A stretch of 32,000 bases of DNA from Candidatus Poseidoniaceae archaeon (GTDB lineage Archaea; Thermoplasmatota; Poseidoniia; Poseidoniales; Poseidoniaceae), in the NCBI GenBank assembly GCA_943789275.1, contig CALSTM010000001.1, positions 90,001 through 122,000 on the forward strand, read 5' to 3'. Position 1 is the stretch's first letter. Each line of letters begins with the position of its first letter. A program made the position numbers and the translations under genes. The notes beneath the pieces were generated by a model that was given only the letters and a program-made list of their open reading frames with translations, searched no databases and was not told the origin of the DNA. Of the stretch, positions 3,586-27,815 are shown piece by piece.

Positions 3586-3599
3586 CTCAATCCTTTTCC

Positions 3600-3641
3600 A
3601 CCCTATATGGGGGATAAAAAATTAAAAAATGGTGAAAAAAT
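3600..3641 (+). promoter_or_regulatory. Putative archaellin promoter and ribosome-binding region.
   Basis: This is a 56-nt AT-rich gap after the stop at 3585. It has a TATA-like ctatatgg (3603-3610), an A-rich tract (3613-3630), and a GGTGA Shine-Dalgarno (3631-3635) 6 nt before ATG 3642. Confidence 0.4.
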
Positions 3642-4834: not shown

Positions 4835-4842
4835 TTGCATCT

Positions 4843-4876
4843 AAGGGCACCAATGCCGAAAGGCATTACCGCCCTT
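4843..4876 (+). promoter_or_regulatory. Intra-operon stem-loop directly after the archaellin genes (possible attenuator or mRNA 3'-end stabiliser).
   Basis: The sequence is AAGGGC-ACC-AATGCC-GAAA-GGCATT-ACC-GCCCTT. That gives two 6-bp helices, a symmetric 3x3 internal loop and a GAAA tetraloop. It starts 9 nt after the flaB2 stop, and its 3' arm abuts the GGAGG (4878-4882) of the next gene. Confidence 0.4.
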
Positions 4877-4889
4877 GGGAGGATTTATC

Positions 4890-5738: not shown

Positions 5739-5739
5739 T

Positions 5740-6444
5740 ATGGGTGCTTCGGCTGGAATTGGCGGTCTCATTATTGGGATCGCAATGCTGGTGGTCTTCA
5801 CTATGGCCATCTCAGCATTTGATGCTCAAGTTGCAACCGGATTGGATGCAATTGAGAGCGCTTCAGTTCCAGACCCGAGTTTTACCATCGACGATGTAAA
5901 TCTTGAACAGCATGTCATTCATGAAGTTTCAATAAATGCGACGAATCGAGGAACTGGCTACGTTGATGGTATTTTGAGAGCGAACGTTGGTTCGGACGAG
6001 TGTGGTGGATTTTCTGCTAACTTCTCGACGACAGGTGGCGAAATCGATGTAGGAAATGTGGTTATCACCAACCACGGTTTCTGCCCAGATTCATCCACAC
6101 CAACATGGACAATTCTTGATACGTCGCTCAATGTTCAAACCCCAACGACGGTAGCTAATTTCTCGGCACCAGTCTTCCGACAGTATATTTATGCAAACAT
6201 CACGAATCAGGGTGAAGACCTGCTTAAGACCGATGAAGTTTGGGTATTCTACGATGGAGAAGAGCCCGAGACACTTACTGGTTCACAAGACTCTGTGCGA
6301 TCTGAAATCGCCGGATTCGGCACCAATTGGTACTCTGGTCAAACGCTTCAATTGTTTTGGGATGATGAATCCAGTTCGAACACAGAATATGAACGGTTGG
6401 CATTCACTGCTGGACCGACAACTTTGGTGCGTTCCACATCTTGA
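5740..6444 (+). CDS. flaF: FlaF/ArlF-like archaellum stator protein.
   Basis: The ATG at 5740 is 8 nt after GAGGTGA (5725-5731) and 1 nt after the upstream stop. The N-terminus MGASAGIGGLIIGIAMLVVFTMAISAF matches the MGFS...hydrophobic-helix start of FlaF. It sits before flaG-H-I-J as in euryarchaeal operons. At 234 aa it is longer than typical FlaF. Confidence 0.65.
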   Translation: MGASAGIGGLIIGIAMLVVFTMAISAFDAQVATGLDAIESASVPDPSFTIDDVNLEQHVIHEVSINATNRGTGYVDGILRANVGSDECGGFSANFSTTGGEIDVGNVVITNHGFCPDSSTPTWTILDTSLNVQTPTTVANFSAPVFRQYIYANITNQGEDLLKTDEVWVFYDGEEPETLTGSQDSVRSEIAGFGTNWYSGQTLQLFWDDESSSNTEYERLAFTAGPTTLVRSTS

Positions 6445-6453
6445 GGTTATCTT

Positions 6454-6960
6454 ATGGCTGACGGCGGAGTTTCAACTTACATCATGTTGATTACAGCATT
6501 GCTGGTTTCCAGCTCTGTTAGTGCGGTTTTGATACAAGAATGGTCCTCTACATCAAGGATAATTCAGCAGCAACAGCGAGGCTTACAACTTACTGAAGAA
6601 TTGGGTATCGATTTTGCGGGTGACCCTATGAATGTCAACATTGACAGAAGTGGAACTGAACATGAAATTACTTTTTATGTGCTGAATACTGGAGAACACC
6701 CTATGGACCAAACTAAATTTCAAGTCCTTGTAGACGGTCTTGCGATACCGAACACTGCCGTTTCAATTTCATTTGTTGGAACTCCTACACCCACAGAATG
6801 GAATCCGAATGTTCTCATTGAAGTGGCCGTAACGAATACTTCGTTCAATTCCTATACAGACAACACCGACATTAGCGTGTTTGTGACGGCAACCTCGGAA
6901 GTCGTTTCAGGCGTCTCGTCGAGTGCAAGTTTCAACCAAGAGGTGCGTTTGAATGGATGA
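6454..6960 (+). CDS. flaG: FlaG/ArlG-like archaellum stator protein.
   Basis: GAGGT (6444-6448) precedes ATG 6454. It has an N-terminal archaellin-like helix, STYIMLITALLVSSSVSAVLI, followed by a beta-rich soluble domain. It lies directly upstream of and overlaps flaH. Confidence 0.65.
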   Translation: MADGGVSTYIMLITALLVSSSVSAVLIQEWSSTSRIIQQQQRGLQLTEELGIDFAGDPMNVNIDRSGTEHEITFYVLNTGEHPMDQTKFQVLVDGLAIPNTAVSISFVGTPTPTEWNPNVLIEVAVTNTSFNSYTDNTDISVFVTATSEVVSGVSSSASFNQEVRLNG

Positions 6961-7693
6961 ACACGTCAAAGATGATCCTTTCGTCACCGCTCACAAGCCA
7001 AAGGAAGACGGCTTCCCGTACGAACTGGAAACTGATTCCCTTGCTGACTCGATGGGTTTGCGTATGCCGAACCGTTCGCTGTATGTGTTGCAAGGTGCTG
7101 TTGGTGGAGGTAAATCTCTCCTTTCGCAACGCCTTGCTTTTGGACTTGCCGAAAACGGTGTTAAAGTTCTGGTCATCACCACTGAATTAACAACTCGAGG
7201 ATGGGTTGAGCAAATGGAATCTCTCGGATACGGGGTAACTGACTTCATTCGAGAGGGTAAACTCTTGGTGTTCAGCCGATTTGGAACCATAGCGGAATCA
7301 TTGCCAAATGTTGGTCTTGAGGAAGTTCTGGAATCCGAAGCGATTGAATTGGCAGACGTCGTCATCATCGATTCAGCAAGTTCAATCATGCCGGATGACC
7401 TCAACGATGTCAGTCGCTTCCAGTTGATGCAAAAATTGCGTCAAGTTTGCTCCCATGGACGTTCTTTAATGCTCTGTGTAGACCCTGATGAAATGGACCA
7501 CAAATTAATGCACACTTTACGGGCTTCTGCTGAAGTTGTTCTTGATTTACAAACTGCGATGATTGGTGGCGAAATTAAGCGTAACATTGTCATTACTCGT
7601 TTTTTACGAGCGGCAGGACCGATTCAAACATCCATTGGATGGCGTGTGGAGCCTGGAATGGGCTTCATCGTTGATATTACGGCGGTTAGCTGA
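6953..7693 (+). CDS. flaH: FlaH/ArlH, KaiC/RecA-like ATP-binding archaellum protein.
   Basis: Walker A is LQGAVGGGKS and a Walker B-like motif is ADVVIIDSAS. It is about 245 aa and sits immediately upstream of flaI. Its start overlaps the flaG stop. Confidence 0.85.
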   Translation: MDEHVKDDPFVTAHKPKEDGFPYELETDSLADSMGLRMPNRSLYVLQGAVGGGKSLLSQRLAFGLAENGVKVLVITTELTTRGWVEQMESLGYGVTDFIREGKLLVFSRFGTIAESLPNVGLEEVLESEAIELADVVIIDSASSIMPDDLNDVSRFQLMQKLRQVCSHGRSLMLCVDPDEMDHKLMHTLRASAEVVLDLQTAMIGGEIKRNIVITRFLRAAGPIQTSIGWRVEPGMGFIVDITAVS

Positions 7694-7702
7694 TGAGGTG
7701 TT

Positions 7703-9424
7703 ATGATGGTCGATGAAGAACTCAAGTTTGCTCGAGGCGACCTCAACGGGGTCATGAGTGCACACCCGCACGTTGCTGAATGGGTGCGTGACTTTGAATC
7801 AAGCCATGGTTCGCGTCCAATCTATTACGGCCCATTAGACCGCGGGGCCAAAAAGGAACGACCCTACAACCTCATCTACATTACAAAAGAACCTATTTTC
7901 GTTCACATTTACGAACCTCCTGCCGATGAGGAAGGTGGTGGACAAATTCTTTGGTTCGGTCTCGAGCCTCAACTTTCCGAAGAAGAGGAAAACATTCGGC
8001 GTGGTTTAATCGAAACTCTACTCCAAGAGGCCCCAACAGCCCCATCGTTTACCACGGACGAGGAATTTGAAAATATTCTCTCTCAAATGATTGAACGCTA
8101 TACGCTTCTCGATACAGATGCTGTGACGAACGTTCGTCGGCAAGGCCGCTTTTGGGAAATGATGGGCATGGACGACAAGCGGTTGATTGTAACAGCCGCT
8201 CAACGAGAACGCCTACGATATATTGTTGTCCGAGATTTAATTCGTAACGGTCCATTGGAACCTCTTCTCTCAGATGAAATGCTGGAAGATATTCACTCGA
8301 TTGGCCTAAAGCACGTCCACATGGACCACAAAGTGTTTGGAATGGTCACATCGAACATTCGATTCCGTGACCGGGAACTGCTTTCTCGTTTCCTGAGGGC
8401 CATGTCTGAACGAATTGGGCGACCAGTTTCAGACAACAAACCGATTATTGACGGAGCATTGCTTGACGGCTCCCGTATCAACATTATTTTCTCCGATGAC
8501 GTCTCAATGCTTGGACCATCGTTCACTATTCGTAAGTTCGCTGAAGAAACCATCTCCATCACGCAACTTATTGCTTGGGGAACAATCTCTTCACAAGTCG
8601 CTGCTTACATTTGGATTTGTCTTGAATACGGAATGTCTGTTCTTGTCTCTGGAGAAACTGCATCCGGTAAGACCACTACGCTCAACGCGATTTTACCGTT
8701 CATTGACCATAACGTTAAGATTTATTCCGCTGAAGACACCCCTGAAGTAAAGGTACGTCACAAGATATGGCAACGTCTGGTCACTCGTTCATCAAAGAAT
8801 GAGGAATCTCGTGTCGAAATGTTCGACCTGCTCAAGGCCGCTTTGCGTAGCCGACCTCGATACATCATCATTGGAGAAATACGTGGTGTCGAAGGTGCAA
8901 CAGCTTTCCAGGCTATGCAAACAGGGCACCCCGTTATCGCTACGTTCCACGCATCGTCCATTGTCAAAATGATTCAGAGATTTACCGGTGACCCGATTAA
9001 TGTTCCAATTCGCTTTTTCGATAACCTGAACTTCGCTATTTTCCAAGAAGTGGTTGAGGCACCAGGTGGAGGTATCGCTCGACGAGTCACTGGAATTGAT
9101 GAAGTCATTGGCTACAACAAACACAGCGATGGTGTACTTACTCGTGGTATGTTCGAATGGGATCCGGTGAAAGACAAGCACTATTTCCGTGGTATGTTCC
9201 AAAGTCACTTGTTGGAAAATAAGATTGCTGCAATGGCAGGTTTCTCAAACAAGCGTGATATTTACGACGAAATGTTGAGGCGAGCCGCTGCTCTTGACCG
9301 TATGGTTGAACGGGAATTAACGCATTACGACGACGTATTCGATTTGTTGGGCATCTATTACAACAACGGATGGGAACACTTCGACAAAGCAGTTGATTCA
9401 TGGACTGGAGTAAACCATACTTGA
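7703..9424 (+). CDS. flaI: FlaI/ArlI, archaellum assembly and motor ATPase (type II/IV secretion ATPase superfamily).
   Basis: Walker A is SGETASGKTTT, Walker B is RPRYIIIGEIRGVEG, and the His box is GHPVIATFHA. GAGGTG (7695-7700) lies upstream. The second ATG at 7706 has better spacing and may be the true start. Confidence 0.93.
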   Translation: MMVDEELKFARGDLNGVMSAHPHVAEWVRDFESSHGSRPIYYGPLDRGAKKERPYNLIYITKEPIFVHIYEPPADEEGGGQILWFGLEPQLSEEEENIRRGLIETLLQEAPTAPSFTTDEEFENILSQMIERYTLLDTDAVTNVRRQGRFWEMMGMDDKRLIVTAAQRERLRYIVVRDLIRNGPLEPLLSDEMLEDIHSIGLKHVHMDHKVFGMVTSNIRFRDRELLSRFLRAMSERIGRPVSDNKPIIDGALLDGSRINIIFSDDVSMLGPSFTIRKFAEETISITQLIAWGTISSQVAAYIWICLEYGMSVLVSGETASGKTTTLNAILPFIDHNVKIYSAEDTPEVKVRHKIWQRLVTRSSKNEESRVEMFDLLKAALRSRPRYIIIGEIRGVEGATAFQAMQTGHPVIATFHASSIVKMIQRFTGDPINVPIRFFDNLNFAIFQEVVEAPGGGIARRVTGIDEVIGYNKHSDGVLTRGMFEWDPVKDKHYFRGMFQSHLLENKIAAMAGFSNKRDIYDEMLRRAAALDRMVERELTHYDDVFDLLGIYYNNGWEHFDKAVDSWTGVNHT

Positions 9425-9435
9425 GGTGATGTCGG

Positions 9436-11238
9436 ATGCAGCGAATGTCTTACTGGCAAATCGCCCTGCGTCGCGTCGAGATTCCTGTCGGCCAATTTCT
9501 TCTTTTTTATGTTGGAGGGGCCGCACTTGTTGGTTTCCTTTTTTCACTTGTACTCATTTTGTTTACAGGTGGCCTTGCTGAAGGCGCCCTGTTTTCTGGT
9601 GCTGCTGGTATTCTTTTGCTTCTTCTCTTACCAATCTTAGCAGGAGGTGCTGCTGCTGCGTATCCCTTGCTTGATGTACAACGCTCGGCTACGTTGATTG
9701 AGAAAGAAATGCACATGTTCATCACAAGAATGGGCATTCTCTCCCTTGGTGAAGTCGGGGCACAGTCCATTTTCGACATCCTCAAGCAAATGAGCGATTA
9801 TGGAGAATTAGCAAATGAAGTCAAGCGTATAGAGACGCTTGTCGACAAATGGCACACTTCTCTACCCGAAGCATCGAGAATTGTGGCCCAGCAAAGTCCA
9901 AGCCCGTTATGGGCTGATTTCCTTGACAGAATGGCGTTTTCAATCGAGGCAGGTCAGGCCATTGATGAGTTCATGCGCTCTGAACAGGAAACCGTAGCAG
10001 AACAGTACACGACGTTGTACGACACCCGACTTGAATCTGTTGACACCATGAAGGAAATTTACGTTTCTTTGGTCTCAGCAGCGTTGTTTGGACTGGTCAT
10101 TGCTGGAATACATCTGGTTTTGTTTGAAGTAGGTTCGTCTTCCGACACGCCGATTTTGGTTGCCAGTCGTTTGAGATTCGTTCTTCTAGCGTCACTGGTT
10201 TTCACGGTTATTCAAATCATAGCCGTCTTTGCGTTTAGGGCTACGGTACCTGAAGATCCTACCTTTGCACGGGACGAAATGGATACACCTTTCCGAATAA
10301 ATTTCCTACGTGCTTTGGTTGGGGCGGGTATTTTGACTGTTTTCTTGGTCTTCATCATGATTTTGTTGCTTGCATCAGCATGGGAAGCTGTTACCAATCA
10401 ATGGGACCGTTATGGACTCATTTTCATCGCAGCTCCTCTCTCTCCACTGCTCATTCCTGCAATTATGATTGGAAGGGAAGAGCGCCAAGTTTTGCGTAGA
10501 GATGAGACCTACCCCGATTTCATTCGTGCTTTGGGCGGTACTGCCCAAGCTCGTTCTTCGGAACCATCTGCGACCATCAAAGCGCTACGTGGCATCGACT
10601 TTGGTATGCTCGACCGTTCTATTGACCGTTTAGAGAAGCGATTGTCGACACGGATTGATTCGGACCGTGCGTGGGATTACTTCAACGCCGATACCAATTC
10701 AGCAGTGATCTCTCGATACACTCGAATCTATATCGAGGGCTCACAATCTTCAGGCAAGCCAGCAGACACAGCAGAAATGGTTTCGCGTTCTGTTGGAAGC
10801 CTTCTCTCTCTTCGTCGGAGAAGAGCATTATCTGCAAACACGATGCGAGGGGTTGCGCTTGGTTTGCTCATCGCTTCGGTCACAAGCCTCAACGTGACCA
10901 TTGCCATTGTTTTGAAACTCGGCGATTCAATTGCTGGTGTTGCATCCAATTTCACGGATACTGATGTCACTGCTTTGGCTGATTTTGGGGCAGGTCTGGC
11001 TCTTCCAGTCATGGAAGATGCGTCTGGGGTTGGAGAAAATATTCGAATGTTCAAAGTCATTGTATCCATTCTTATTCTCTTCCAGGTTATGGCGGTCTCA
11101 ACGATTTCCAATCGTTTGAGAGGTGGCATTTGGACAACAGCTATGGGTCAAGGGATTCAGTTGCTTTGGGTTGCAGGGATCACCTCGTACATCACTTCAT
11201 TGGTTTTGGAATCTGCATCTTCAGTATTCGGTGTTTAA
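9436..11238 (+). CDS. flaJ: FlaJ/ArlJ, polytopic archaellum platform membrane protein (GspF/TadC-like).
   Basis: It is 600 aa with multiple TM helices flanking two soluble domains. GAGGTGAT (9424-9431) precedes the ATG. It is in the canonical position after flaI. Confidence 0.85.
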   Translation: MQRMSYWQIALRRVEIPVGQFLLFYVGGAALVGFLFSLVLILFTGGLAEGALFSGAAGILLLLLLPILAGGAAAAYPLLDVQRSATLIEKEMHMFITRMGILSLGEVGAQSIFDILKQMSDYGELANEVKRIETLVDKWHTSLPEASRIVAQQSPSPLWADFLDRMAFSIEAGQAIDEFMRSEQETVAEQYTTLYDTRLESVDTMKEIYVSLVSAALFGLVIAGIHLVLFEVGSSSDTPILVASRLRFVLLASLVFTVIQIIAVFAFRATVPEDPTFARDEMDTPFRINFLRALVGAGILTVFLVFIMILLLASAWEAVTNQWDRYGLIFIAAPLSPLLIPAIMIGREERQVLRRDETYPDFIRALGGTAQARSSEPSATIKALRGIDFGMLDRSIDRLEKRLSTRIDSDRAWDYFNADTNSAVISRYTRIYIEGSQSSGKPADTAEMVSRSVGSLLSLRRRRALSANTMRGVALGLLIASVTSLNVTIAIVLKLGDSIAGVASNFTDTDVTALADFGAGLALPVMEDASGVGENIRMFKVIVSILILFQVMAVSTISNRLRGGIWTTAMGQGIQLLWVAGITSYITSLVLESASSVFGV

Positions 11239-17940: not shown

Positions 17941-17989
17941 GCCACCTCGAAGCGTTAGACTCTTGAACAGAGTCTTGTTGGGCATTCAC

Positions 17990-18955
17990 ATGAGAAGAGG
18001 CATCAAGGCCGGCGCAATGCTGTTGTTGTTGCTTTGCACCAGCATTCTAGCGGGATGTACAACTGGTTCCATGGATTCAAGCGATTCGGATTCAACAACC
18101 GTTGAACAGACCTTACTTCCACAGTGGGAAGTTGGAGATCAATGGCTCTATACGTTCATTACGCCACAATTTGGAGAAGACAGCGCACGATTAGTGGTCG
18201 CAGAAATAGACGATGCAGAAGGCGTTTATCAAGTTGGAATCTCCTCTGAACGGGAGGCTCAACGCCACGCTGTGATCAATCACAATCCATTTCTGGGTCG
18301 AATGACTCTTGATGGATTGTCCGTTTATGAAAATGGAGAACCGCAATCCGTGTTCTCGTTCCCATGGACCGTTGGCGACAGTTGGACATTCACATTGTTC
18401 GGACAAGACTGGACTGCGACGACCGATTCGATTACCAACGGCAACGCTCGTGTTTCAGCCACTTCTGCTGAAGGGCACGAGATTTCCTATACCTTCAGCG
18501 GTGATAAAGAGTTCATGGAGAACTTCGTCTGGCGGGATGCAGAAGGCGTTCGGCAATTGCGGATGGATTTGAACTCCGCTCGTGATGGGTACTCTGGTGA
18601 TGTCTTTTTCTATCGCGCACGTGATTTACTCGACAACCGCTACGAAAACAGCGACCAAGAAGTGTACGATACTTTCCTTGATGAAGGGCATCCTTCCGAG
18701 GGAGACTGGAATACCCTTGTTTGGTATCTTGATGTAGAAATCACTCAAGGTGGCTCGGGTTCCCTCTCAATGAAAGACCATGCAGGGGCCTCCCCACTGA
18801 CAAGAGCGTGGGGCTCAGGTGCTACCGAAAAGGGAGCAATCGGTACCATCCCCTCGAATACTGGAGAATATTCTCTTACGGCAACTGTACGAGGGCCTGG
18901 CTCTTTTGTCCACTTGCGAGTTGCAGGTGCCCTCGTGTTCCAGTGGGAACTGTGA
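17990..18955 (+). CDS. Secreted lipoprotein, function unknown.
   Basis: The ATG at 17990 gives MRRGIKAGAMLLLLLCTSILAGC, with a lipobox-like LAGC and a Ser/Asp-rich linker (TTGSMDSSDSDS). The rest is beta-rich with no recognised family. Confidence 0.6.
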   Translation: MRRGIKAGAMLLLLLCTSILAGCTTGSMDSSDSDSTTVEQTLLPQWEVGDQWLYTFITPQFGEDSARLVVAEIDDAEGVYQVGISSEREAQRHAVINHNPFLGRMTLDGLSVYENGEPQSVFSFPWTVGDSWTFTLFGQDWTATTDSITNGNARVSATSAEGHEISYTFSGDKEFMENFVWRDAEGVRQLRMDLNSARDGYSGDVFFYRARDLLDNRYENSDQEVYDTFLDEGHPSEGDWNTLVWYLDVEITQGGSGSLSMKDHAGASPLTRAWGSGATEKGAIGTIPSNTGEYSLTATVRGPGSFVHLRVAGALVFQWEL

Positions 18956-19865: not shown

Positions 19866-20405
19866 CTATATATCGTGGTGAACCACATCGTACTTTTTCT
19901 TTGAATTCAACGCTTCTAAGCCGTAGTGGACAGCACTGCATACTGCAGCGTCAGTTTTTCCGGAGTGCTTCACAATTCGAGTGATGGCACCTTTCTTTGC
20001 CGCCATTCTGCCCAAGACCTCCACGGTAAGGGCACCAAAGCCGTGGATGCCATCTGGCCTGGTTCCTTGATTCACATGTCCGGGCACATTCGGCCTTTTT
20101 GTCCCGTTTTCCGCTGAGTGGTCGGTGAGAACGATGAACGATCGCACATTCTCCTTTTCCAGTACATCTAATGCCGTTCTCATGAGGGCGACCGTTCCTT
20201 CAAGACGTTTGAGATACTCCGAGCTTCGGTTGTCGTAAGTTTCAACGAGAATAACATCAATTTCAGTCTCTTCTTCAGTGATGCTCCATCCCAATGTTTC
20301 GACATACTGTGAAACAACTTGGTTACGGCCGAAGTACCGTAGTTTGGGCATGTGACTCCCAGTCGATTCATCATCATGTTCTTTCCCCTTCCGAGTCTTG
20401 GCCAA
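19866..20405 (-). CDS. Hypothetical protein (179 aa), divergent from the giant repeat gene and upstream of glutaredoxin.
   Basis: It is the longest ORF in this interval and has ordinary amino-acid composition. No family is recognised from the sequence. The start could instead be M19 (MPKLRYFG). Confidence 0.5.
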   Translation of the reverse strand: MAKTRKGKEHDDESTGSHMPKLRYFGRNQVVSQYVETLGWSITEEETEIDVILVETYDNRSSEYLKRLEGTVALMRTALDVLEKENVRSFIVLTDHSAENGTKRPNVPGHVNQGTRPDGIHGFGALTVEVLGRMAAKKGAITRIVKHSGKTDAAVCSAVHYGLEALNSKKKYDVVHHDI

Positions 20406-20510
20406 AGTGTCAATAGCGTTATCATGTAACAGGAACTTAAGCGAGGTATGGGCTTTGATTTTTCGACTTTTAAACGGAAGAATAAAAGGTCCGGGGGTTC
20501 ACAACATACC

Positions 20511-23500
20511 ATGTTAGCGGAGCGTATGCGTAGGTTCGGTGCTTTTGCGGCGCTGGCTATGTTTGTTTTCGCTTCAGTTTCGACATCACAATTGATGTTC
20601 CTCGAACTTGAAAATACCAGTGACATTTCAACACTGTATTCCTCGTCGCGTTCGACCGATTCCGACTCTGATGGCATACTTGACCTCGATGATGCGTGCC
20701 CAACTGGCAACAATGGTTGGACCTCGAATTCAACGACCGACCACGATTCAGATGGTTGTCAAGATTCGAATGAGGACCAAGATGATGACAACGACACAAT
20801 TACCGATAATTTTGACGATTGTGCTACGGGTGTAATCGGTTGGACGCCTACGGCGATCAACGATTATGACTCTGATGGATGTCAAGATTCAACCGAGGAT
20901 AATGACGATGACAATGACAACGTGACTGACTTTTTGGATACGTGCCCTATTGGCGACAAAGGTTGGATTTCATCAAGCGTCAATGACTACGATTCAGATG
21001 GTTGTCAAGATGTGTCTGAAGACGGTGACGACGATAACGATTCAGTTTTAGATGGCTCGGATTCGTGCCAGACTGGTGATTTAGGTTGGACTTCAACCGC
21101 AATTACGGACGTCGATGGCGATGGTTGCCGAGATGCATCTGAAGACGATGATGACGACGGTGATGGGCTTCTTGATGGCAACGATGATTGTCCTACGGGC
21201 GACACGGGTTGGACCTCCTCTTCTGCGACCGACCACGATTCAGACGGTTGTCAAGATGCTTCAACTGAAGACACCGACGATGACAACGACGGTATTACCG
21301 ATTCTGCAGACGATTGCCAAGACGGTGATTTGGGTTGGACACCCGACTCCTCTACAGATTATGATTCAGACGGTTGTCAAGACTCGAGTGAAGACTTGGA
21401 TGATGATAATGACCTTGTTTTCGATAACACCGATGATTGCCGCCTCGGTAATCTTGGTTGGACCTCATCTTCATCGACTGACCATGATTCTGACGGATGT
21501 CAAGATGCTTCAAGCGAAGATGATGATGACGATAACGATGGCGTTGCAGATGGAATTGATGATTGCAGCACAGGAAACCTTGGTTGGACTTCTTCAGCAC
21601 TTACGACCGATTATGATACAGACGGTTGTCAAGATTCTTTGGAAGACCTCGACGACGATAACGATGGTGTTGCCGACTTAGCTCCTGACCTCTGCCAAAC
21701 GGGTGAAATGGGTTGGACCTCCTCACCATCTACAGATTTCGACGGCGACGGTTGCCGTGACTCTACAGAAGATTTCGATACCGATAACGACCAGATTCCA
21801 GATGACGATGATGACTGTGTCAACGGCAATACGGGATGGGTTTCGAATTCAAGCACCGACCACGACACAGATGGATGCCAAGATGCTTCCCCTGAAGACT
21901 TGGATGATGACAACGATGGAATTAATGATTCTCTTGATGCCTGCCAATTCGGCGTGATTGGTTGGTCTCCTTCATCCAGCACCGATTATGATTCTGATGG
22001 ATGCCGCGATTCGGATGAAGATCCCGACGACGATAACGACGGAGTCAGTGATGGCTCTGATTTATGCCAGACCGGTGAGTTGGGATGGATCTCCAGTTCC
22101 AGCAATGATTACGACAGCGACGGATGCAAGGATTCCACTGAAGACAACGACCGAGACAATGACCTCATTCTTGACGCAGCTGACGTTTGTCCACAAGGCA
22201 ATCTTGGTTGGACTTCCAGCGCAGTTACTGATCATGATACTGACGGTTGCCAAGATTCTCTTGAAGACCCTGACGATGATAACGATGGTGTTTTCGATGG
22301 ATTCGATGCTTGTCCTACTGGTGCACTTGGTTGGACCTCATCCTCTGCTACGGACCGTGATTCTGATGGTTGCAGGGATTCTGATGAAGACCCAGATGAT
22401 GACAATGATGATGTTTCCGATTCTATGGATTCCTGCCCGAATGGCGATATGGGGTGGACTTCCTCTTCGACAACCGATCATGATTCCGACGGTTGCCGGG
22501 ATGCTTCTTCGGAAGATACCGACGATGACAATGATTCAGTACTTGATGCAGCGGATACGTGTCAAACCGGAACGATTGGCTGGACTCCGACGACTTTGAC
22601 GGATTACGATTCAGATGGTTGTAAAGACGACGTCGAAGATAACGATGACGATAACGACGGAATTGTTGATTCAAATGACGCATGTGAAAAGGGCGATTTG
22701 GGTTGGACTTCTACGTTGCTCAACGACAACGACCAAGACGGTTGCCGGGATGCCACAGAGGATTTTGACTCGGATAACGATGGCGTTACAGATGACCTTG
22801 ACTTATGCCCACAAGGGATTACTGGCTGGTCTTCATCATCTTCAACCGATTACGACAGTGATGGCTGCAAAGACACATCAGCGGAAGATACCGATGATGA
22901 TAACGATGGAATCCCTGATGGAAACGATTCGTGTCCAACGGGGACCATCGGCTGGAGTCCGGATTCAACCAACGATTACGATTCCGATGGGTGTAAAGAC
23001 GATACCTCGTTTGACCCAGATGATGATAACGATGGTGTTTTTGACCCGTTCGATGACTGTGAGAAAGGAGACCTTAATTGGAGCTCAAGTACAAGCACTG
23101 ACCACGATGATGACGGTTGTCAAGATTCTCTCGAAGACCTCGATGACGACAACGACTCAGTACTTGATTTGCACCCTGACGACTGCCAATTCGGCATCAC
23201 AGGTTGGACATCGACCGCCTTGACAGATTCCGATAACGATGGCTGCAAAGATGATTCTCTTGAAGATACAGACGATGACAACGACGGCATCGCTGACAAT
23301 CTTGATGAATGTCAATTTGGCGAAGGTGGATGGAATCCATCGCCGAGTACCGATTACGACTCTGATGGTTGCCGTGATGCGACTGAAGACCTCGATGACG
23401 ATAACGATGGAGTCGAAGATTTAGACCCTGATAATTGTCCAAAAGGCGACTTGAATTGGATTTCAAACGCCCTCACAGACAACGATGGTGACGGATGCCA

Positions 23501-26500
23501 GGACAATTCAATCGAAGATGGAGATGATGACAACGATGGCATCGCTGACAATCTTGATGTTTGCCAAGCTGGAGATGTTGGATGGTCCCCTTCCCCATCC
23601 ACCGACTACGATTCCGATGGGTGTCAAGATTCTTTGGAAGACCTCGACGATGACAACGATGGTGTTTTCGATCTCCATCCAGATGTCTGTGACAAGGGTG
23701 ATTTAGGCTGGACTTCAACACCAGCAAACGACTACGATGGAGACGGCTGCCGAGATTCGACAGAAGATTCGGACACTGACAACGATGGAATCGACGATGT
23801 CAATGATGACTGTAACTTCCTTGAACTCGGCTGGATTTCTTCATCTGCCACAGACCACGACTCCGATGGTTGCAAAGACGATTCCAATGAAGATTTGGAT
23901 GACGACAACGACGGCATCACCGATTCACTCGATCAGTGCCCAACAGGAATCATTGGATGGACTCCAACTTTGGTCAATGACTACGATTCCGATGGTTGTC
24001 GGGATGCTGATGAAGACATCGATGATGACAACGATGGTGTTGGCGATTCCAGTGACACATGCGATACTGGCGACCTCGGCTGGACTTCAAACAGCACAAC
24101 TGATTTCGATGGCGATGGTTGCCGTGATTCATCTGAAGACATCGATGATGATAACGACACAATAACTGACACCTCAGACAATTGCCAACTTGCAGTGAAC
24201 ACTGGACAAGAAAATCACGATTTTGATTCAGAAGGTGATGCTTGCGATGACGACGATGATAACGACGGGGTCGATGATGATGTACCGGACAATTGTATCC
24301 GTGGTGCTCTTGGCTGGACTTCAACGCCTACCAATGATTTTGACGGTGATGGCTGCCGTGATCTTGATGAGGATGACGACGATGATGCCGATGGCATCTC
24401 AGACACCTCTGACGATTGTACGCCTGGCCAGACGGGGTGGACTTCTTCTTCAACAACCGATCATGATTCTGACGGTTGCCGGGATGCTTCTTCGGAAGAT
24501 ACCGACGATGACAATGATTCAGTACTTGATCCAGCGGACAGTTGTTTCCGTGGTGCTCTTGGCTGGATTTCTTCGCCATCCACAGACTATGACGGTGACG
24601 GTTGCCGCGATGCAGATGAAGACCCCGACGACGACGGAGATACCGTCGCTGACTCAGCGGACAGTTGCCCAACCAGCACTGTTGGTTGGATTTCAAATTC
24701 GTCGACCGATAACGATGGCGATGGTTGCGAAGACGGCGTGAACGACCCCGACGATGATAACGACGGAGTCGCTGATGGTATTGATAATTGCCAGCTCACT
24801 CCGAATACTGACCAAGCCAACTATGATGGTGATTCCGAGGGCGATGTCTGTGATGATGACGACGATAACGACGGTGTCAACGACCCAATCGACAGTTGTT
24901 CACAAGGTAACACTGGCTGGACCTCGACGACCTTCACAGATCATGACGGTGATGGGTGTCAAGATTTTACTTCGGAAGACCTTGATGCTGATAACGATAC
25001 AGTGCCGGATACTGTTGATACCTGCCAACTTGGTATCGTGGGGTGGATTTCAAATTCAATCACGGATTATGATGGCGATGGTTGTCAAGACATTGGTGAA
25101 GATATGGACGATGACAATGATGGTGTTCCTGATGTCAATGACCGCTGTCAAACAGGTGAGATGGGTTGGACTCCGACTCCAGGCACCGATTACGACTCCG
25201 ACGGTTGCCGAGATATTTCTGAAGACCTGGATGATGATAACGACGGCATCATCGATACCATTGACGTACAATGTCAAAAGGGTGACCTCGGTTGGATTTC
25301 TGGTCCTGCTACGGACCACGATTCGGATGGTTGCCGCGATGCAGGTGAAGATCTGGATGACGACAACGATACGAAGGCTGACGTGAATGACGATTGTCGA
25401 GTCGGAGAACTCGGATGGATTTCGAACGCAACGACAGACTACGATTCGGACGGTTGCCGAGACCTCACTGAAGACCAAGACGATGACAATGACCTTATTT
25501 TGGATGATTTCGATGACTGTTGGCCGGCGGACTTGGGTTGGACCTCAAATTCAACAACCGATTGGGATTCCGACGGTTGCAACGACTTTTCAGAAGACAG
25601 TGATGATGATAATGATGGAATTCCTGATAGTATCGATGCTTGTCAGACCGGAGATTTAGGCTGGACCTCGACATTCACATCCGATAATGATGATATGATT
25701 ACTGACTGGGACGGCGATGGTTGCCGAGATGTTGGTGAAGATCCAGATGATGATAACGATGGTGTTCTGGATGGTTCAGACTCATGTCCCAAAATCAGAA
25801 ACCACTGGAATTGGTCCTCTGCAGACTTTAGTGACCATGACGGTGACGGTTGTATGGATGATTTTTACAACAATGGATTTTTCAGCCTCGAAGAAGATTT
25901 GGACGATGACAACGATGGAGTTTTAGACGTTGATGATGATTGCCAAAAAGGAGATCTTGGTTGGACTTCAGAACCGATCACGGATAACGATGGTGACGGC
26001 TGTAGAGACTCGAACGAAGATTCCGATGACGACAACGACGGTATTGAAGACCTCGATGATAATTGTCCGAGTGGAGAGTTTGGCTGGATTCCCTCCAACC
26101 TCACAGATTACGACAGCGACGGTTGTCTTGATGTGTCCGAGGATTTGGACGACGACAATGATGGAGTGATTGATTTTGCTGATTTGTGTCAGACGGGGGA
26201 ACTCGACTGGACTTCCTCAGGTTCCGAGGATTATGACAGCGATGGTTGTCGTGACTCCACTGAAGATTTAGATGATGATAATGACAATGTTCCAGATGAT
26301 GCCGATAACTGTTCCACCGGGCGGATGGGATGGAGCGCACCATCCGAAAACATCGATTATGATTTCGACGGGTGTTATGACGGTACTGAGGACAAAGACG
26401 ACGATAACGATGGCGTTTTAGATGTCCAAGATACTTGCAACCGTGGAACCCGCAACTGGACTTCACTTCCAACGAACGATTACGATTCGGATGGGTGCCA

Positions 26501-27611
26501 AGATTCCAGCGAAGATGGTGATGATGACAATGACAAGATTAGCGATTGGCAAGACGATTGTCCGCTCGGCGAATTAAGTTGGTTCTCAAGTGTGTTAACC
26601 GACTACGATGGCGATGGATGCCGGGACTTTACTGAGGATGAGGACGATGATAACGATAACCGCATTGACGTCGACGATGATTGCCCTCTTGGAGAGTCGG
26701 ATTGGGATTCAACCAATCCACTTCAAGATCTTGATGAGAACGGTTGTAAAGATTTCACACCTGAAGACTCCGATTCAGACGGTGATGGGATTGTTGATGC
26801 AGAAGATTTGTGCCCTGTAGGGGCAACTGGTTGGACTTCAACTCCATCGACAGATTATGACACCGATGGTTGTCAAGACAGTACTGAGGACCTCGATGAT
26901 GACAACGACCGAGTTTTGGACGTGAACGATGAGTGCCAGACAGGAGAGCTCCTGTGGGCGTCATCGAAATCCAAAGATCACGATGTTGACGGTTGCCGCG
27001 ATTCAACTGAAGACGAGGACGATGACAACGACGGAGTGAAGGACATAACCGACTTGTGTTCCACTGGGGATTTAGATTGGCTGACTTCACCGACCACCGA
27101 TTACGATGGGGATGGATGCAGAGATGAATCTGTGGAAGACCCCGATGATGATAACGACGGCCTTAATGACGCTTCTGATGACTGTAATCGCGGCATTCTC
27201 AACTGGATTTCGGATGAAGTAAATGATTACGATCAAGACGGTTGTAATGATTCCAGTGAGGATATCGATGATGACGGAGACGGTGTATCCGATACTCTCG
27301 ATACTTGCCCGCTCGGTGAGAAGTACTGGACTTCTGCCCCGGAATCGGACTCAGATGCAGATGGTTGCCGAGACGGCTATGAAGATACTGATTACGTAGC
27401 AGTCGTCGATGACAACACGGATGAGGCTGGCGACTCCATATGCAACCCGTTGCTTGAGAATTGTGTGAATGAAGAAGAGGAAGACAAGGTCAACACGGTC
27501 GATGCCAAATCCGAAAGCGAAGTGCGACAATTATTGATGACGATACTTGCTCTGGCTATCGTTCCGACCGTCATCGGTGTACTTTTCATCGCATACCGCA
27601 TGAAATGGTAA
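20511..27611 (+). CDS. Giant hyper-acidic cell-surface protein with about 52 tandem thrombospondin-type-3-like Ca2+-binding modules, an N-terminal signal peptide and a C-terminal TM anchor.
   Basis: The module is C-x2-G-x2-GW-x-S-x4-D-x-D-x-DGC-x-D-x2-3-ED-x-DDDNDG-x2-D-x2-D. Counting DGC cores by eye gives about 52 modules. Two further modules have the canonical TSP3 pattern (NCQLxxNTxQxNxDxDSEGDxCDDDDDNDG). I prefer the ATG at 20511: its product, MLAERMRRFGAFAALAMFVFASV, looks like a signal peptide, and aataaaag (20481-20488) is a TATA-like box about 25 nt upstream. The ORF is open from ATG 20448, which is an alternative start. The C-terminus LLMTILALAIVPTVIGVLFIAYRMKW is a TM anchor. Confidence 0.9.
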   Translation: MLAERMRRFGAFAALAMFVFASVSTSQLMFLELENTSDISTLYSSSRSTDSDSDGILDLDDACPTGNNGWTSNSTTDHDSDGCQDSNEDQDDDNDTITDNFDDCATGVIGWTPTAINDYDSDGCQDSTEDNDDDNDNVTDFLDTCPIGDKGWISSSVNDYDSDGCQDVSEDGDDDNDSVLDGSDSCQTGDLGWTSTAITDVDGDGCRDASEDDDDDGDGLLDGNDDCPTGDTGWTSSSATDHDSDGCQDASTEDTDDDNDGITDSADDCQDGDLGWTPDSSTDYDSDGCQDSSEDLDDDNDLVFDNTDDCRLGNLGWTSSSSTDHDSDGCQDASSEDDDDDNDGVADGIDDCSTGNLGWTSSALTTDYDTDGCQDSLEDLDDDNDGVADLAPDLCQTGEMGWTSSPSTDFDGDGCRDSTEDFDTDNDQIPDDDDDCVNGNTGWVSNSSTDHDTDGCQDASPEDLDDDNDGINDSLDACQFGVIGWSPSSSTDYDSDGCRDSDEDPDDDNDGVSDGSDLCQTGELGWISSSSNDYDSDGCKDSTEDNDRDNDLILDAADVCPQGNLGWTSSAVTDHDTDGCQDSLEDPDDDNDGVFDGFDACPTGALGWTSSSATDRDSDGCRDSDEDPDDDNDDVSDSMDSCPNGDMGWTSSSTTDHDSDGCRDASSEDTDDDNDSVLDAADTCQTGTIGWTPTTLTDYDSDGCKDDVEDNDDDNDGIVDSNDACEKGDLGWTSTLLNDNDQDGCRDATEDFDSDNDGVTDDLDLCPQGITGWSSSSSTDYDSDGCKDTSAEDTDDDNDGIPDGNDSCPTGTIGWSPDSTNDYDSDGCKDDTSFDPDDDNDGVFDPFDDCEKGDLNWSSSTSTDHDDDGCQDSLEDLDDDNDSVLDLHPDDCQFGITGWTSTALTDSDNDGCKDDSLEDTDDDNDGIADNLDECQFGEGGWNPSPSTDYDSDGCRDATEDLDDDNDGVEDLDPDNCPKGDLNWISNALTDNDGDGCQDNSIEDGDDDNDGIADNLDVCQAGDVGWSPSPSTDYDSDGCQDSLEDLDDDNDGVFDLHPDVCDKGDLGWTSTPANDYDGDGCRDSTEDSDTDNDGIDDVNDDCNFLELGWISSSATDHDSDGCKDDSNEDLDDDNDGITDSLDQCPTGIIGWTPTLVNDYDSDGCRDADEDIDDDNDGVGDSSDTCDTGDLGWTSNSTTDFDGDGCRDSSEDIDDDNDTITDTSDNCQLAVNTGQENHDFDSEGDACDDDDDNDGVDDDVPDNCIRGALGWTSTPTNDFDGDGCRDLDEDDDDDADGISDTSDDCTPGQTGWTSSSTTDHDSDGCRDASSEDTDDDNDSVLDPADSCFRGALGWISSPSTDYDGDGCRDADEDPDDDGDTVADSADSCPTSTVGWISNSSTDNDGDGCEDGVNDPDDDNDGVADGIDNCQLTPNTDQANYDGDSEGDVCDDDDDNDGVNDPIDSCSQGNTGWTSTTFTDHDGDGCQDFTSEDLDADNDTVPDTVDTCQLGIVGWISNSITDYDGDGCQDIGEDMDDDNDGVPDVNDRCQTGEMGWTPTPGTDYDSDGCRDISEDLDDDNDGIIDTIDVQCQKGDLGWISGPATDHDSDGCRDAGEDLDDDNDTKADVNDDCRVGELGWISNATTDYDSDGCRDLTEDQDDDNDLILDDFDDCWPADLGWTSNSTTDWDSDGCNDFSEDSDDDNDGIPDSIDACQTGDLGWTSTFTSDNDDMITDWDGDGCRDVGEDPDDDNDGVLDGSDSCPKIRNHWNWSSADFSDHDGDGCMDDFYNNGFFSLEEDLDDDNDGVLDVDDDCQKGDLGWTSEPITDNDGDGCRDSNEDSDDDNDGIEDLDDNCPSGEFGWIPSNLTDYDSDGCLDVSEDLDDDNDGVIDFADLCQTGELDWTSSGSEDYDSDGCRDSTEDLDDDNDNVPDDADNCSTGRMGWSAPSENIDYDFDGCYDGTEDKDDDNDGVLDVQDTCNRGTRNWTSLPTNDYDSDGCQDSSEDGDDDNDKISDWQDDCPLGELSWFSSVLTDYDGDGCRDFTEDEDDDNDNRIDVDDDCPLGESDWDSTNPLQDLDENGCKDFTPEDSDSDGDGIVDAEDLCPVGATGWTSTPSTDYDTDGCQDSTEDLDDDNDRVLDVNDECQTGELLWASSKSKDHDVDGCRDSTEDEDDDNDGVKDITDLCSTGDLDWLTSPTTDYDGDGCRDESVEDPDDDNDGLNDASDDCNRGILNWISDEVNDYDQDGCNDSSEDIDDDGDGVSDTLDTCPLGEKYWTSAPESDSDADGCRDGYEDTDYVAVVDDNTDEAGDSICNPLLENCVNEEEEDKVNTVDAKSESEVRQLLMTILALAIVPTVIGVLFIAYRMKW
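20658..27392 (+). repeat. Coding tandem-repeat region of the giant gene (module period about 135-141 bp, diverged at DNA level).
   Basis: It runs from the first DSDSDG (aa 71 counted from 20448) to the last DSDADGCRDGYEDTD module. Synonymous and nonsynonymous divergence between modules is visible throughout, except for one near-identical pair (see findings). Confidence 0.85.
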
Positions 27612-27815
27612 TTTTCACGAACCGGTGTACTTTTCATCGCATACCGCATGAAATGGTAATTTTCACGAATCGGTGTACTTTTCATCGCATACCGCATGAA
27701 ATGGTAATTTTCACGAATCGGGGTACTTTTCATCGCATACCGCATGAAATGGTAATTTCCACGAATTGATGTACTTTCACCGCATACCCGCATGATATGG
27801 AAGTTTTCATGACGA
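27575..27815 (+). repeat. Five tandem 48-bp direct repeats. Copy 1 is the last 11 codons plus the stop of the giant gene.
   Basis: The unit is cggtgtacttttcatcgcataccgcatgaaatggtaattttcacgaa(c/t). Copies start at 27575, 27623, 27671, 27719 and 27767. Copies 1-3 are identical except for the last base. Copy 4 has 2 changes. Copy 5 is degenerate. Confidence 0.95.

What the first reader, a model, noticed from the sequence alone, without database searches (positions are those of the whole stretch)
20511..27611. Giant hyper-acidic surface protein built from about 52 tandem modules derived from thrombospondin type-3 repeats
A single ORF of more than 7 kb encodes a signal peptide, about 6.7 kb of tandem 44-47-aa modules and one C-terminal TM anchor. 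The module consensus is D-x-C-x2-G-x2-GW-[TI]-S-x4-D-x-D-x-DGC-x-D-x2-3-ED-x-DDDNDG-x2-D-x2. Each module carries exactly two Cys and two DxDxDG-type acidic loops, and roughly a third of residues look to be Asp. Only two modules (about 24177-24269 and 24783-24875) keep the canonical TSP3 pattern NCxxxxNxxQxNxDxDxxGDxCDDDDDNDG. All the others insert a conserved G-x2-GW-x-S element, so this looks like a derived repeat type rather than plain TSP3. By analogy with Ca2+-loaded TSP3/RTX-like repeats, I infer a Ca2+-rigidified extended stalk or adhesin, or a large cell-surface Ca2+ buffer, in seawater. No PGF-CTERM-type sorting signal is visible; the anchor is a plain TM helix plus an RMKW tail. The divergently transcribed 179-aa gene (19866-20405) is also unrecognisable.
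Basis: partly seen in the sequence, partly recalled or inferred. Interest (0 to 1): 0.7.

Follow-up and report, generated by a model that had tools for sequence, protein, structure and literature searches.

The report
Giant calcium-repeat surface protein, marine archaeon
A marine Group II archaeon encodes a 2,366-residue membrane-anchored surface protein made almost entirely of 54 acidic, cysteine-stapled calcium-binding modules, which are an undescribed variant of the thrombospondin type-3 repeat; the gene is real, conserved and globally distributed, but its function is only inferred.

Summary
One ORF (most likely 20511-27611, + strand) encodes a signal peptide, 54 tandem modules, a small Cys loop, one TM helix and an RMKW tail. 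It is 28% Asp, has 110 Cys and a net charge of about -695. Fifty-two modules are a 41-42-aa 'GW' type (not 44-47 aa). Two modules (24177-24287, 24783-24890) are canonical TSP3.

The GW module is homologous to TSP3: hhalign gives 92% probability, and the only PDB fold matches are thrombospondin and COMP. It falls below Pfam TSP_3's cut-off, and the only NCBIfam hit is a sub-cut-off MtsC match centred on the canonical modules.

The gene is not an artefact. The identical protein occurs in several assemblies. About 35 syntenic orthologues exist in Poseidoniaceae MAGs and ocean metagenomes, in size classes of about 38, 54 and at least 59 modules. All scaffold residues are conserved.

In every locus that spans its 5' end, the gene sits in a two-gene cassette with a divergent 161-aa orphan, behind a conserved BRE/TATA-like motif.

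Best reading: a Ca2+-loaded, disulfide-stapled filament with no head domain, used for adhesion or cohesion or as a surface coat. Function is inferred. TSP-like genes in this order were already reported, so this is a new variant of a known kind.

The parts
20472..20492 (+). Conserved BRE/TATA-like promoter motif (AAACGGAAGAATAAAAGGTCC). The AATAAAAG element lies at -30..-23 from ATG 20511, which implies a leaderless mRNA.
   Evidence: Near-identical ACGGAAGGATAAAAAGACC sits at a fixed distance from the conserved ATG in 9 GTDB orthologue loci. It occurs once upstream of the gene in all 16 metagenome loci that span the 5' end. Promoter function is inferred.
20511..27611 (+). Coding sequence of the giant protein (2366 aa plus stop). 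The maximal ORF starts at 20448.
   Evidence: The identical product is found in independent assemblies.
20511..20588 (+). Probable Sec signal peptide, MLAERMRRFGAFAALAMFVFASVSTS.
   Evidence: Read directly from the sequence: basic n-region followed by a 15-residue hydrophobic core. Orthologues have the same layout and no conserved twin-Arg. No predictor was run.
20589..20690 (+). Short acidic N-terminal linker (QLMFLELENTSDISTLYSSSRSTDSDSDGILDLD). There is no globular head domain.
   Evidence: no significant family match.
20691..24176 (+). GW-type modules 1-28. This is the membrane-distal block, whose length varies between orthologues.
24177..24287 (+). Module 29, canonical TSP3 repeat (37 aa).
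24288..24782 (+). GW-type modules 30-33.
24783..24890 (+). Module 34, canonical TSP3 repeat (36 aa). Taken alone it scores 27.5 bits on PF02412 (cut-off 25).
24891..27434 (+). GW-type modules 35-54. The membrane-proximal arrangement T-G4-T-G20 is conserved in orthologues.
27435..27530 (+). Conserved CNPxxxxC mini-loop plus acidic linker.
27531..27608 (+). C-terminal TM helix (LLMTILALAIVPTVIGVLFIAY) plus the 4-residue tail RMKW. The motif VPTxxGxLxIAYRxxW is conserved in all orthologues.
   Evidence: No sorting-signal model matches.
27575..27814 (+). 48-bp DNA tandem repeat: 4 near-perfect copies plus 1 degenerate copy. The unit is the last 12 codons, the stop codon and 11 nt. Copy number differs between assemblies.
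19866..20351 (-). p161, a divergently transcribed 161-aa orphan gene found with the giant gene in every locus that spans the giant gene's 5' end. Predicted to be a Rossmann-like half-domain.

Best explanation
The gene encodes a type-I membrane protein of a Poseidoniaceae (Marine Group II) archaeon. Its whole ectodomain is a chain of 54 thrombospondin-type-3-like calcium-binding modules.

Each module carries two 12-residue DxDxDGxxDxx[E/D] loops. Loop A is D17-E28. Loop B runs from D31 to D1 of the next module, so neighbouring modules share a loop. Each module also has one presumed Cys3-Cys23 disulfide enclosing a conserved GxxGW[TI]S turn. A small hydrophobic cluster (L8, W10, Y/H18, V/I37) replaces the N..Q pair of canonical TSP3.

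Inferred mechanism:
- The polyanionic chain stays unfolded in the low-Ca2+ cytoplasm.
- It is exported through Sec from a leaderless mRNA.
- It folds outside the cell in seawater, where Ca2+ and oxidising conditions favour loop loading and disulfide formation, into a secondary-structure-free, Ca2+-filled filament.
- The filament is held at its C-terminus by one TM helix.

There is no head domain, so the filament itself would be the functional surface. I consider Ca2+-mediated multivalent adhesion or cohesion to other cells, particles or anionic polymers the most likely role. It is an accessory trait of one clade, and its length is set by the number of distal modules.
For: Shown:
- Architecture and invariant scaffold.
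- Homology to TSP3: hhalign gives 92% probability, E 5e-7. A profile of canonical repeats that includes the two embedded canonical modules hits COMP and TSP-1/-2 structures at 5e-68.
- AF2 of modules 13-16 gives pLDDT 74 with essentially no secondary structure. Its only PDB fold matches are TSP-2, COMP and TSP-1 (E 1e-4 to 1e-2).
- The gene is real. The identical product occurs in at least 3 assemblies. Syntenic orthologues are present in 10 GTDB loci and 27 metagenome loci including Tara Oceans, and most are intact.
- Against the closest orthologue, scaffold positions are 100% conserved while exposed positions are 23-50% identical. pN/pS is 0.22.
- A BRE/TATA-like motif is conserved at a fixed distance from the ATG.
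- The gene is an accessory cassette, absent from most Poseidoniales that keep the same neighbourhood.
- GW modules elsewhere serve as the membrane-proximal array below globular head domains in surface proteins of MGII and marine bacteria.

From the literature:
- Canonical TSP3 repeats form a Ca2+ core (Kvansakul 2004 and Dai 2017, as cited in PMC6593220 and 10.1101/2023.11.21.568195).
- Myxococcus MtsC, a TSP3-repeat surface protein, acts in cell-cell cohesion (PMC11980579). NCBIfam's MtsC model gives the only family hit, 155 bits.
- TSP3-like proteins are expressed surface-associated proteins in marine Nitrosopumilus (PMC6593220).
- Rinke et al. linked thrombospondin genes of Poseidoniales to adhesion (PMC6461757).
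Against: - No Ca2+ binding, disulfide pattern, surface location or expression was tested.
- AF2 confidence is moderate and was obtained without ions.
- There is no ligand-binding head, which is atypical for adhesins.
- No adhesion-related genes are linked in the cassette.
- N-glycosylation sequons are at chance level (24 observed against 24 +/- 4 in shuffles).
- Module number falls into discrete, stable classes rather than varying rapidly.
- The function of the partner p161 is unknown.
- One orthologue has a nonsense codon and a few have frameshifts. These may be errors or real loss.
Confidence: 0.5

Rival explanations
1. Passive polyanionic brush. The same Ca2+-loaded filaments act as a steric and electrostatic outer coat. 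They would keep viruses, grazers or particles at a distance, or retain a hydrated cation layer, rather than binding anything specific.
For: - No head domain.
- Extreme uniform charge.
- Exposed positions vary freely between orthologues, and pN/pS is higher than for the neighbouring PPase (0.22 against 0.07).
- Clade-specific presence or absence is typical of surface-defence traits.
- TSP3-like proteins of marine AOA rise 15-40-fold under H2O2 stress, which was interpreted as a matrix barrier (PMC6593220).
Against: - Module number is stable within lineages, and no hypervariable region was seen.
- The structural evidence fits adhesion equally well.
- Nothing here discriminates between the two readings.
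Confidence: 0.28
2. Core envelope (S-layer-like) protein of the cell.
For: It is a large, acidic, membrane-anchored surface protein. The envelope of Poseidoniales is uncharacterised.
Against: The gene is present only in one sub-clade. In most Poseidoniales loci with the same PPase...Grx | FMN_red-pirin neighbourhood, the Grx and FMN_red matches lie only about 100-700 bp apart. The chain has no lattice-forming globular domains.
Confidence: 0.05
3. Metal sink or mineral nucleator. The acidic loops would sequester Ca2+ or other cations such as Fe3+ or lanthanides, or nucleate CaCO3.
For: There are 90 DxDxDG motifs, 68 of them full DxDxDGxxDxx[DE] loops. Loop A has the EF-hand ligand pattern with Asp at position 9.
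Against: Seawater Ca2+ is not limiting (established knowledge). No transporters or metal-dependent enzymes are linked. The same pattern occurs in ordinary structural TSP3 repeats.
Confidence: 0.05
4. Assembly artefact or decaying pseudogene.
For: - The sequence is repetitive.
- Two contigs end at the 3' repeat.
- The L004 orthologue has a TGG>TAG change and L043 has a frameshift.
- A few metagenome copies are interrupted.
Against: - Modules are only 59% identical at DNA level, so mis-assembly is unlikely.
- The identical 2387-aa product occurs in several assemblies.
- More than 20 intact orthologous ORFs of 1.7-2.4 kaa are known.
- Scaffold residues are invariant.
Confidence: 0.02

Closest known systems
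Thrombospondin/COMP type-3 repeats (Pfam PF02412; PDB 1UX6, 1YO8, 3FBY)
   Same: - Two adjacent DxDxDGxxDxxD-type loops per unit.
- One Cys pair with the same 20-residue spacing.
- The DDDNDG signature.
- No regular secondary structure in the model.
- Two modules of the array are canonical TSP3.
- Profile-profile probability is 92%, and thrombospondin and COMP are the only PDB fold hits.
   Different: - In 52 of 54 modules the N..Q element is replaced by GxxGW[TI]S.
- The first loop is shifted 4 residues, so the second Cys is at loop position 7 rather than 11.
- Loop A ends in Glu.
- The module is 41-42 aa rather than 36 aa.
- The GW module is below the Pfam cut-off.
- There are 54 units with no lectin-like C-terminal globe, EGF or coiled-coil domains.
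- The host is an archaeon and the anchor is a TM helix.
Poseidoniales/Thalassarchaeaceae GW-module surface proteins (e.g. P0001, P0013, P0100; 'hypothetical protein')
   Same: The same GW module, the same order of organisms, a signal peptide and a single TM after the array.
   Different: These have a 500-1200-aa globular N-terminal region, only about 10-24 modules, and a cytoplasmic tail of roughly 70-100 aa ending in a GYEW...WYR motif. The window protein has no head, 54 modules and a 4-residue tail.
Myxococcus xanthus MtsC (NCBIfam NF047638, TSP3-repeat MYXO-CTERM protein)
   Same: A prokaryotic surface protein made largely of TSP3 repeats. It gives the only NCBIfam hit (155 bits). It is implicated in cell-cell cohesion (PMC11980579).
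   Different: The score is far below the 350-bit equivalog cut-off, and the hit is centred on the two canonical modules. There is no MYXO-CTERM. MtsC is bacterial and much shorter.
Bacterial TSP3 repeats of OmpA-like proteins (Dai et al. 2017; Pfam PF18884 TSP3_bac)
   Same: Ca2+ binding that depends on an intra-repeat disulfide, according to the title of that paper as cited in PMC6593220.
   Different: There are only a few repeats per protein, acting as a linker to an OmpA domain. They have no GW element, and PF18884 did not match the modules.
Ca2+-rigidified giant repeat adhesins (RTX adhesins such as LapA/MpIBP; SiiE)
   Same: Functional analogy only: long tandem arrays whose stiffness depends on extracellular Ca2+ and that fold outside the cell.
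   Different: Those use Ig-like beta-sandwich extender domains, RTX nonapeptides, T1SS export and distal ligand-binding domains. Here there are no GGxGxD motifs, no Ig-like domains and no head.

Membership tests
Thrombospondin type-3 repeat (Pfam PF02412 TSP_3) | Profile score at or above the gathering threshold (25 bits) | tested here: inconclusive
   Canonical module 34 alone scores 27.5 bits (met). A 3-module GW segment scores 17.0 bits and a single GW module gets no hit (not met). The whole protein gives no TSP_3 hit at E<=1.
Thrombospondin type-3 repeat (Pfam PF02412 TSP_3) | Paired Asp-rich DxDxDGxxDxxD Ca2+-binding loops in each repeat | tested here: met
   Module consensus and invariant columns. 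There are 90 DxDxDG motifs and 68 full 12-residue loops. Actual Ca2+ binding was not tested.
Thrombospondin type-3 repeat (Pfam PF02412 TSP_3) | One Cys pair per repeat with conserved spacing | tested here: met
   C3-C23 spacing is 20 in both GW and canonical modules. Disulfide formation cannot be tested here.
Thrombospondin type-3 repeat (Pfam PF02412 TSP_3) | CPxxxNxxQ element preceding the first loop | tested here: not met
   Present only in modules 29 and 34. It is replaced by CxxGxxGW[TI]S in 52 modules. hhalign aligns only the C-terminal 28 columns.
Thrombospondin type-3 repeat (Pfam PF02412 TSP_3) | Fold: Ca2+-filled 'wire' without secondary structure | tested here: inconclusive
   The AF2 model has pLDDT 74 and essentially no secondary structure. 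Foldseek returns only TSP-2, COMP and TSP-1 (E 1e-4 to 1e-2), but TM-scores are low at 0.20-0.24.
MtsC equivalog (NCBIfam NF047638) | Score at or above the 350-bit cut-off, plus a MYXO-CTERM tag | tested here: not met
   155.5 bits. The C-terminus has no match to any NCBIfam sorting-signal model.
Archaeosortase substrates (PGF-CTERM and relatives) | C-terminal tripartite sorting signal recognised by NCBIfam/TIGRFAM models | tested here: not met
   The C-terminal 103 aa match 0 families at E<=1. The VPT...IAYRxxW ending was found only in this orthogroup among all loci held.
RTX adhesins | GGxGxD nonapeptide repeats, Ig-like extender domains, T1SS signal | tested here: not met
   No GGxGxD motifs. 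No Ig-like or RTX Pfam hits. The protein has an N-terminal signal peptide instead.
p161: extended short-chain dehydrogenase/epimerase (SDR) family | N-terminal GxxGxxG dinucleotide motif, catalytic YxxxK, length of about 300 aa | tested here: not met
   The fold resembles the Rossmann half of UDP-sugar 4-epimerases (E 6e-5, TMq 0.6-0.7, 10-14% identity). However, the protein is 161 aa, has no Pfam or NCBIfam hit, and neither motif is visible in the alignment.

The most novel reading that the evidence does not exclude
The GW module is a distinct, self-stabilising Ca2+-binding repeat family, with about 1,300 clusters at 50% identity in 1.8 billion representatives. In one Poseidoniaceae clade it has been turned into a head-less filament of 38 to more than 59 modules that forms the outermost, Ca2+-cross-linked layer of the cell. 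In this reading the filament is specified by a two-gene cassette whose Rossmann-like partner p161 modifies or regulates it, and its length is set by the number of distal modules. It would be a protein-only analogue of a glycocalyx that governs aggregation or virus access in one of the most abundant archaeal groups of the surface ocean.
Probability: 0.2. Interest if true: 0.65.

Novelty: new variant of a known kind. Interest (0 to 1): 0.5.

Why it matters
Marine Group II archaea are among the most abundant surface-ocean archaea. They are uncultured and their cell surface is essentially unknown.

This locus provides four concrete things:
- A recombinantly testable 41-aa building block that current domain libraries miss, which leaves hundreds of large MGII surface proteins annotated as 'hypothetical'.
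- A conserved, accessory two-gene cassette with a defined promoter-like motif. The cassette can be used as a marker to relate its presence or absence, and its 38- versus 54-module alleles, to particle-attached or free-living distributions in existing ocean metagenomes.
- An extreme natural example of a protein built only from Ca2+-binding loops, which is useful for studying Ca2+-driven extracellular folding.
- A ready alignment (A1) from which a profile HMM for the GW module could be built to improve annotation.

Tried and rejected
- HMMER bias filter. I suspected that HMMER's composition-bias filter hid the pure arrays, because neither the window protein nor its orthologues appeared. A local hmmsearch with and without --nobias gives identical results (window protein 2476 bits, 55 domains). 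An exact look-up shows these sequences are simply not in that protein collection. The idea is rejected. Family counts therefore exclude this orthogroup.
- Pfam Fer4_13/Fer4_15 hits. These are short partial matches to Cys/Asp patterns with no qualifying domain, and are treated as spurious.
- Shared C-terminal sorting signal. The IAYRxxW ending was found only in this orthogroup, and no NCBIfam model matches it.
- Higher-order periodicity of modules: none. Similarity is flat across lags 1-15.
- N-glycosylation sequon enrichment: none.
- Homologue search with the C-terminal 95 aa returned only 4 short fragments.
- HMMER searches of PDB sequences with the GW profile or a 4-module segment gave only chance hits.
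- dS between the window and L004 is saturated, and NG86 is unreliable for a protein that is 28% Asp. Only pN/pS is reported, with caution.
- The paper on the Myxococcus mts locus (PMC2168718) is not held.
- Many 100-210-aa ORFs in other frames inside the gene were ignored. I take them to be by-products of the GAT/GAC-rich repeat.
Full report
**Observation**

The window contains a 7.16-kb ORF on the + strand, 20448-27611. Its translation is a monotonous array.
It has 669 Asp (28.3%), 110 Cys and 58 Trp, and a net charge of about -695.
- Cutting at every second Cys gives 54 modules between nt 20691 and 27434.
- Fifty-two modules follow DxCxxGxxGW[TI]Sx4DxDxDGCxDxxEDxDDDNDGxxDxx. Thirty are exactly 41 aa and most others 42 aa.
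- In an alignment of 51 GW modules, C3, W10, D17, D19, G22, C23, D25, D29, D31, D33, D35 and D39 are invariant.
- After module 54 come a CNPLLENC loop, an acidic linker, a 22-residue hydrophobic helix and RMKW.
- At DNA level the modules are old and diverged: mean 59% and maximum 72% identity. TRF does not see the repeat. One 60-nt identical stretch links modules 15 and 31.

**Organism and reality of the gene**

- Organism: the neighbours are archaeal. They include an archaellum operon (three flagellins, FlaH/I/J-like proteins), PolX, H+-PPase and an HTH_10 regulator. PPase-anchored loci identify the source as Poseidoniaceae, Marine Group II.
- Independent assemblies: the identical 2387-aa product is encoded on contigs from at least three assemblies.
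- GTDB orthologues: syntenic orthologues occur in 10 GTDB genomes.
- Metagenome orthologues: they also occur in 27 metagenome contigs, including Tara Oceans. Most are intact. They fall into classes of about 1710-1850 aa (38-40 modules) and about 2400 aa (54 modules). A third class is longer than 2500 aa but runs off the fetched DNA.
- Module order: it is G28-T-G4-T-G20 in the window and G12-T-G4-T-G20 in L009 and L020. The membrane-proximal part is fixed, and length differences lie in the distal block.
- Closest orthologue: against L004 (PPase 95% identical) the protein is 73% identical and collinear, with only 1-5-aa gaps. Scaffold positions are 100% conserved, while positions 2, 4, 5, 13-15, 30, 36, 38, 40 and 41 are 23-50% identical. 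pN/pS is 0.22, against 0.07 for PPase.

This is a functional, constrained gene, not an artefact.

**Start codon**

All orthologues share a Met equivalent to window 20511. A near-invariant DNA motif, ACGGAAGGATAAAAAGACC, sits at a fixed distance 20-39 nt upstream of it. The motif is conserved at nucleotide level even where the coding sequences differ. I read it as a BRE/TATA element driving a leaderless mRNA (inference).

**What the module is**

- Pfam on the whole protein reports no TSP_3 hit.
- Canonical module 34 alone passes the threshold (27.5 against 25 bits). A three-module GW segment reaches only 17 bits, and a single GW module gets nothing.
- NCBIfam gives only a sub-threshold hit to the TSP3-repeat cohesion protein MtsC (155 against 350 bits). 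That hit is centred on the canonical modules.
- A profile of canonical repeats, including the two from the window, hits COMP and thrombospondin-1/-2 structures at 5e-68. The GW profile finds nothing in PDB by HMMER.
- Profile-profile comparison of GW against canonical gives 92% probability, E 5e-7, over the C-terminal 28 columns only.

Read directly, both module types have two 12-residue DxDxDGxxDxx[D/E] loops and a Cys pair 20 residues apart. In the GW type:
- the Cys3-to-loop spacer is four residues longer and carries GxxGW[TI]S instead of PxxxNxxQ;
- the second Cys sits at loop position 7 instead of 11;
- loop A ends in Glu, which gives a classical EF-hand ligand pattern;
- one extra residue separates the loops;
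- loop B is completed by D1 of the next module, so the array is structurally continuous.

AF2 on modules 13-16, with a 47-row alignment of four-module segments, gave pLDDT 74 and essentially no secondary structure. Foldseek against PDB returned only TSP-2, COMP and TSP-1 (E 1e-4 to 1e-2, low TM).

The GW module is therefore a derived TSP3 repeat that current libraries do not model.

**Distribution of the module**

- A GW-profile search of 1.84 billion cluster representatives found 1292 proteins at E<=1e-3, and 230 at E<=1e-30. None had more than 34 matched stretches.
- The window orthogroup is not in that collection.
- Most hits are Poseidoniales 'hypothetical proteins'. Their layout is a signal peptide, a 500-1200-aa globular region, 10-24 GW modules, a TM helix, and a cytoplasmic tail ending in GYEW...WYR.
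- The module also occurs in marine Myxococcota and Proteobacteria proteins. There it is combined with peptidase S8, RCC1, RHS, Glug or lamin-tail domains.
- Elsewhere, then, the array lies between a head domain and the membrane. The window protein is array only.

**Genomic setting**

- The neighbourhood PPase-p330-hydrolase-Grx ... FMN reductase-pirin is conserved across Poseidoniales.
- In most genomes the Grx and FMN_red matches lie only about 100-700 bp apart.
- In the window's clade a two-gene cassette lies there: the giant gene plus a divergently transcribed 161-aa gene, 19866-20351.
- p161 accompanies the giant gene in all 10 GTDB loci and all 16 metagenome loci that span the 5' end.
- p161 has nine homologue clusters, all from MGII and all unnamed, and no Pfam or NCBIfam hit.
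- Its AF2 model has pLDDT 78 and pTM 0.73. It resembles the Rossmann half of nucleotide-sugar 4-epimerases (E 6e-5, 10-14% identity). However, p161 is half their length and lacks their motifs. Its role is open.

**Mechanism**

Shown: an exported-type N-terminus, a C-terminal TM anchor, 108 EF-hand-like loops, 54 Cys pairs, homology to a known Ca2+ 'wire', purifying selection on exactly those residues, and accessory distribution.

Inferred:
- The chain stays unfolded in the low-Ca2+ cytoplasm and is exported by Sec. No conserved twin-Arg is present.
- It folds in oxic seawater, where Ca2+ is about 10 mM, into a Ca2+-filled, disulfide-stapled filament. Trp10, L8, Y/H18 and V/I37 would form a mini-core in each module.
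- Seawater Ca2+ is not limiting, so buffering is unlikely.
- The gene is clade-specific, so a core S-layer role is unlikely.

That leaves two readings:
- Ca2+-mediated adhesion or cohesion, which I prefer. The precedents are MtsC (PMC11980579) and the adhesion reading of thrombospondin genes in this order (PMC6461757).
- A passive protective brush. TSP3-like proteins rise under H2O2 stress in marine AOA (PMC6593220).

The present data do not separate these two.

**Comparison and novelty**

- Thrombospondin-like genes in Poseidoniales are already in the literature (PMC6461757, PMC8821943), and prokaryotic TSP3 repeats are known Ca2+ binders.
- New here are the GW module as a separate unmodelled sub-family, the head-less 38-54(+)-module architecture with a conserved proximal block, the conserved cassette and promoter-like motif, and the global distribution.
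- I rate this a new variant of a known kind, of moderate interest.

Noticed in passing
window 27575-27814: A 48-bp DNA tandem repeat whose unit is the last 12 codons of the giant gene (GVLFIAYRMKW), TAA and 11 nt. The window has 4 near-identical copies plus one degenerate copy. Another assembly of the same population (L001) has 1 copy plus the degenerate one, which makes its intergenic spacer 144 nt shorter. Two other contigs (L002, L003) break exactly there. The repeat is absent from other species' orthologues. The protein is unaffected. It is either a VNTR or an assembly ambiguity.
   Followed up: partly
window 19866-20351 (- strand): A 161-aa orphan gene (starts MPKLRYFGRN) is found with the giant gene in 26 of 26 loci that span the giant gene's 5' end. 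It evolves fast: 29-41% identity where the adjacent hydrolase is 88-97% identical. Its predicted fold resembles the Rossmann half of nucleotide-sugar epimerases but lacks their motifs.
   Followed up: partly
L004:17517-17519: The closest GTDB orthologue (MAG HS5BWF_bin.1) has TAG where the window has the invariant Trp codon TGG of module 22. This is a single in-frame stop in an otherwise collinear gene. L043, L097 and L107 show frameshift-like interruptions. These are either sequencing errors or real gene loss.
   Followed up: no
window 22488-22547 and 24471-24530: A 60-nt exact repeat links modules 15 and 31, although modules are otherwise about 59% identical at DNA level. This suggests a local gene-conversion event.
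   Followed up: no
window 42-11238: An archaellum operon (three flagellin genes 3642-6960, FlaH-like 6953, FlaI-like 7703, FlaJ-like 9436). It is preceded by two large ORFs (42-2510, 822 aa with a weak CARDB match; 2500-3585 with an NPCBM_assoc match), which are probably further surface proteins.
   Followed up: no
P0001, P0013 and many other hits: Paralogous MGII GW-module proteins end, after their TM helix, in a conserved cytoplasmic motif (...DGYEW...WYR...W..[WFY]). It has no Pfam annotation and may be an unrecognised small cytoplasmic domain shared by many MGII surface proteins.
   Followed up: no
window 17963-18955: A 330-aa ORF between the H+-PPase and the hydrolase has no Pfam or NCBIfam match, yet it is conserved in position across nearly all 80 Poseidoniales loci at 42-93% identity.
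   Followed up: no
tools:: The window protein and its full-length orthologues are absent from the large protein collections searched, although the gene-position index holds the product. Family sizes reported from those searches are therefore lower bounds.
   Followed up: yes
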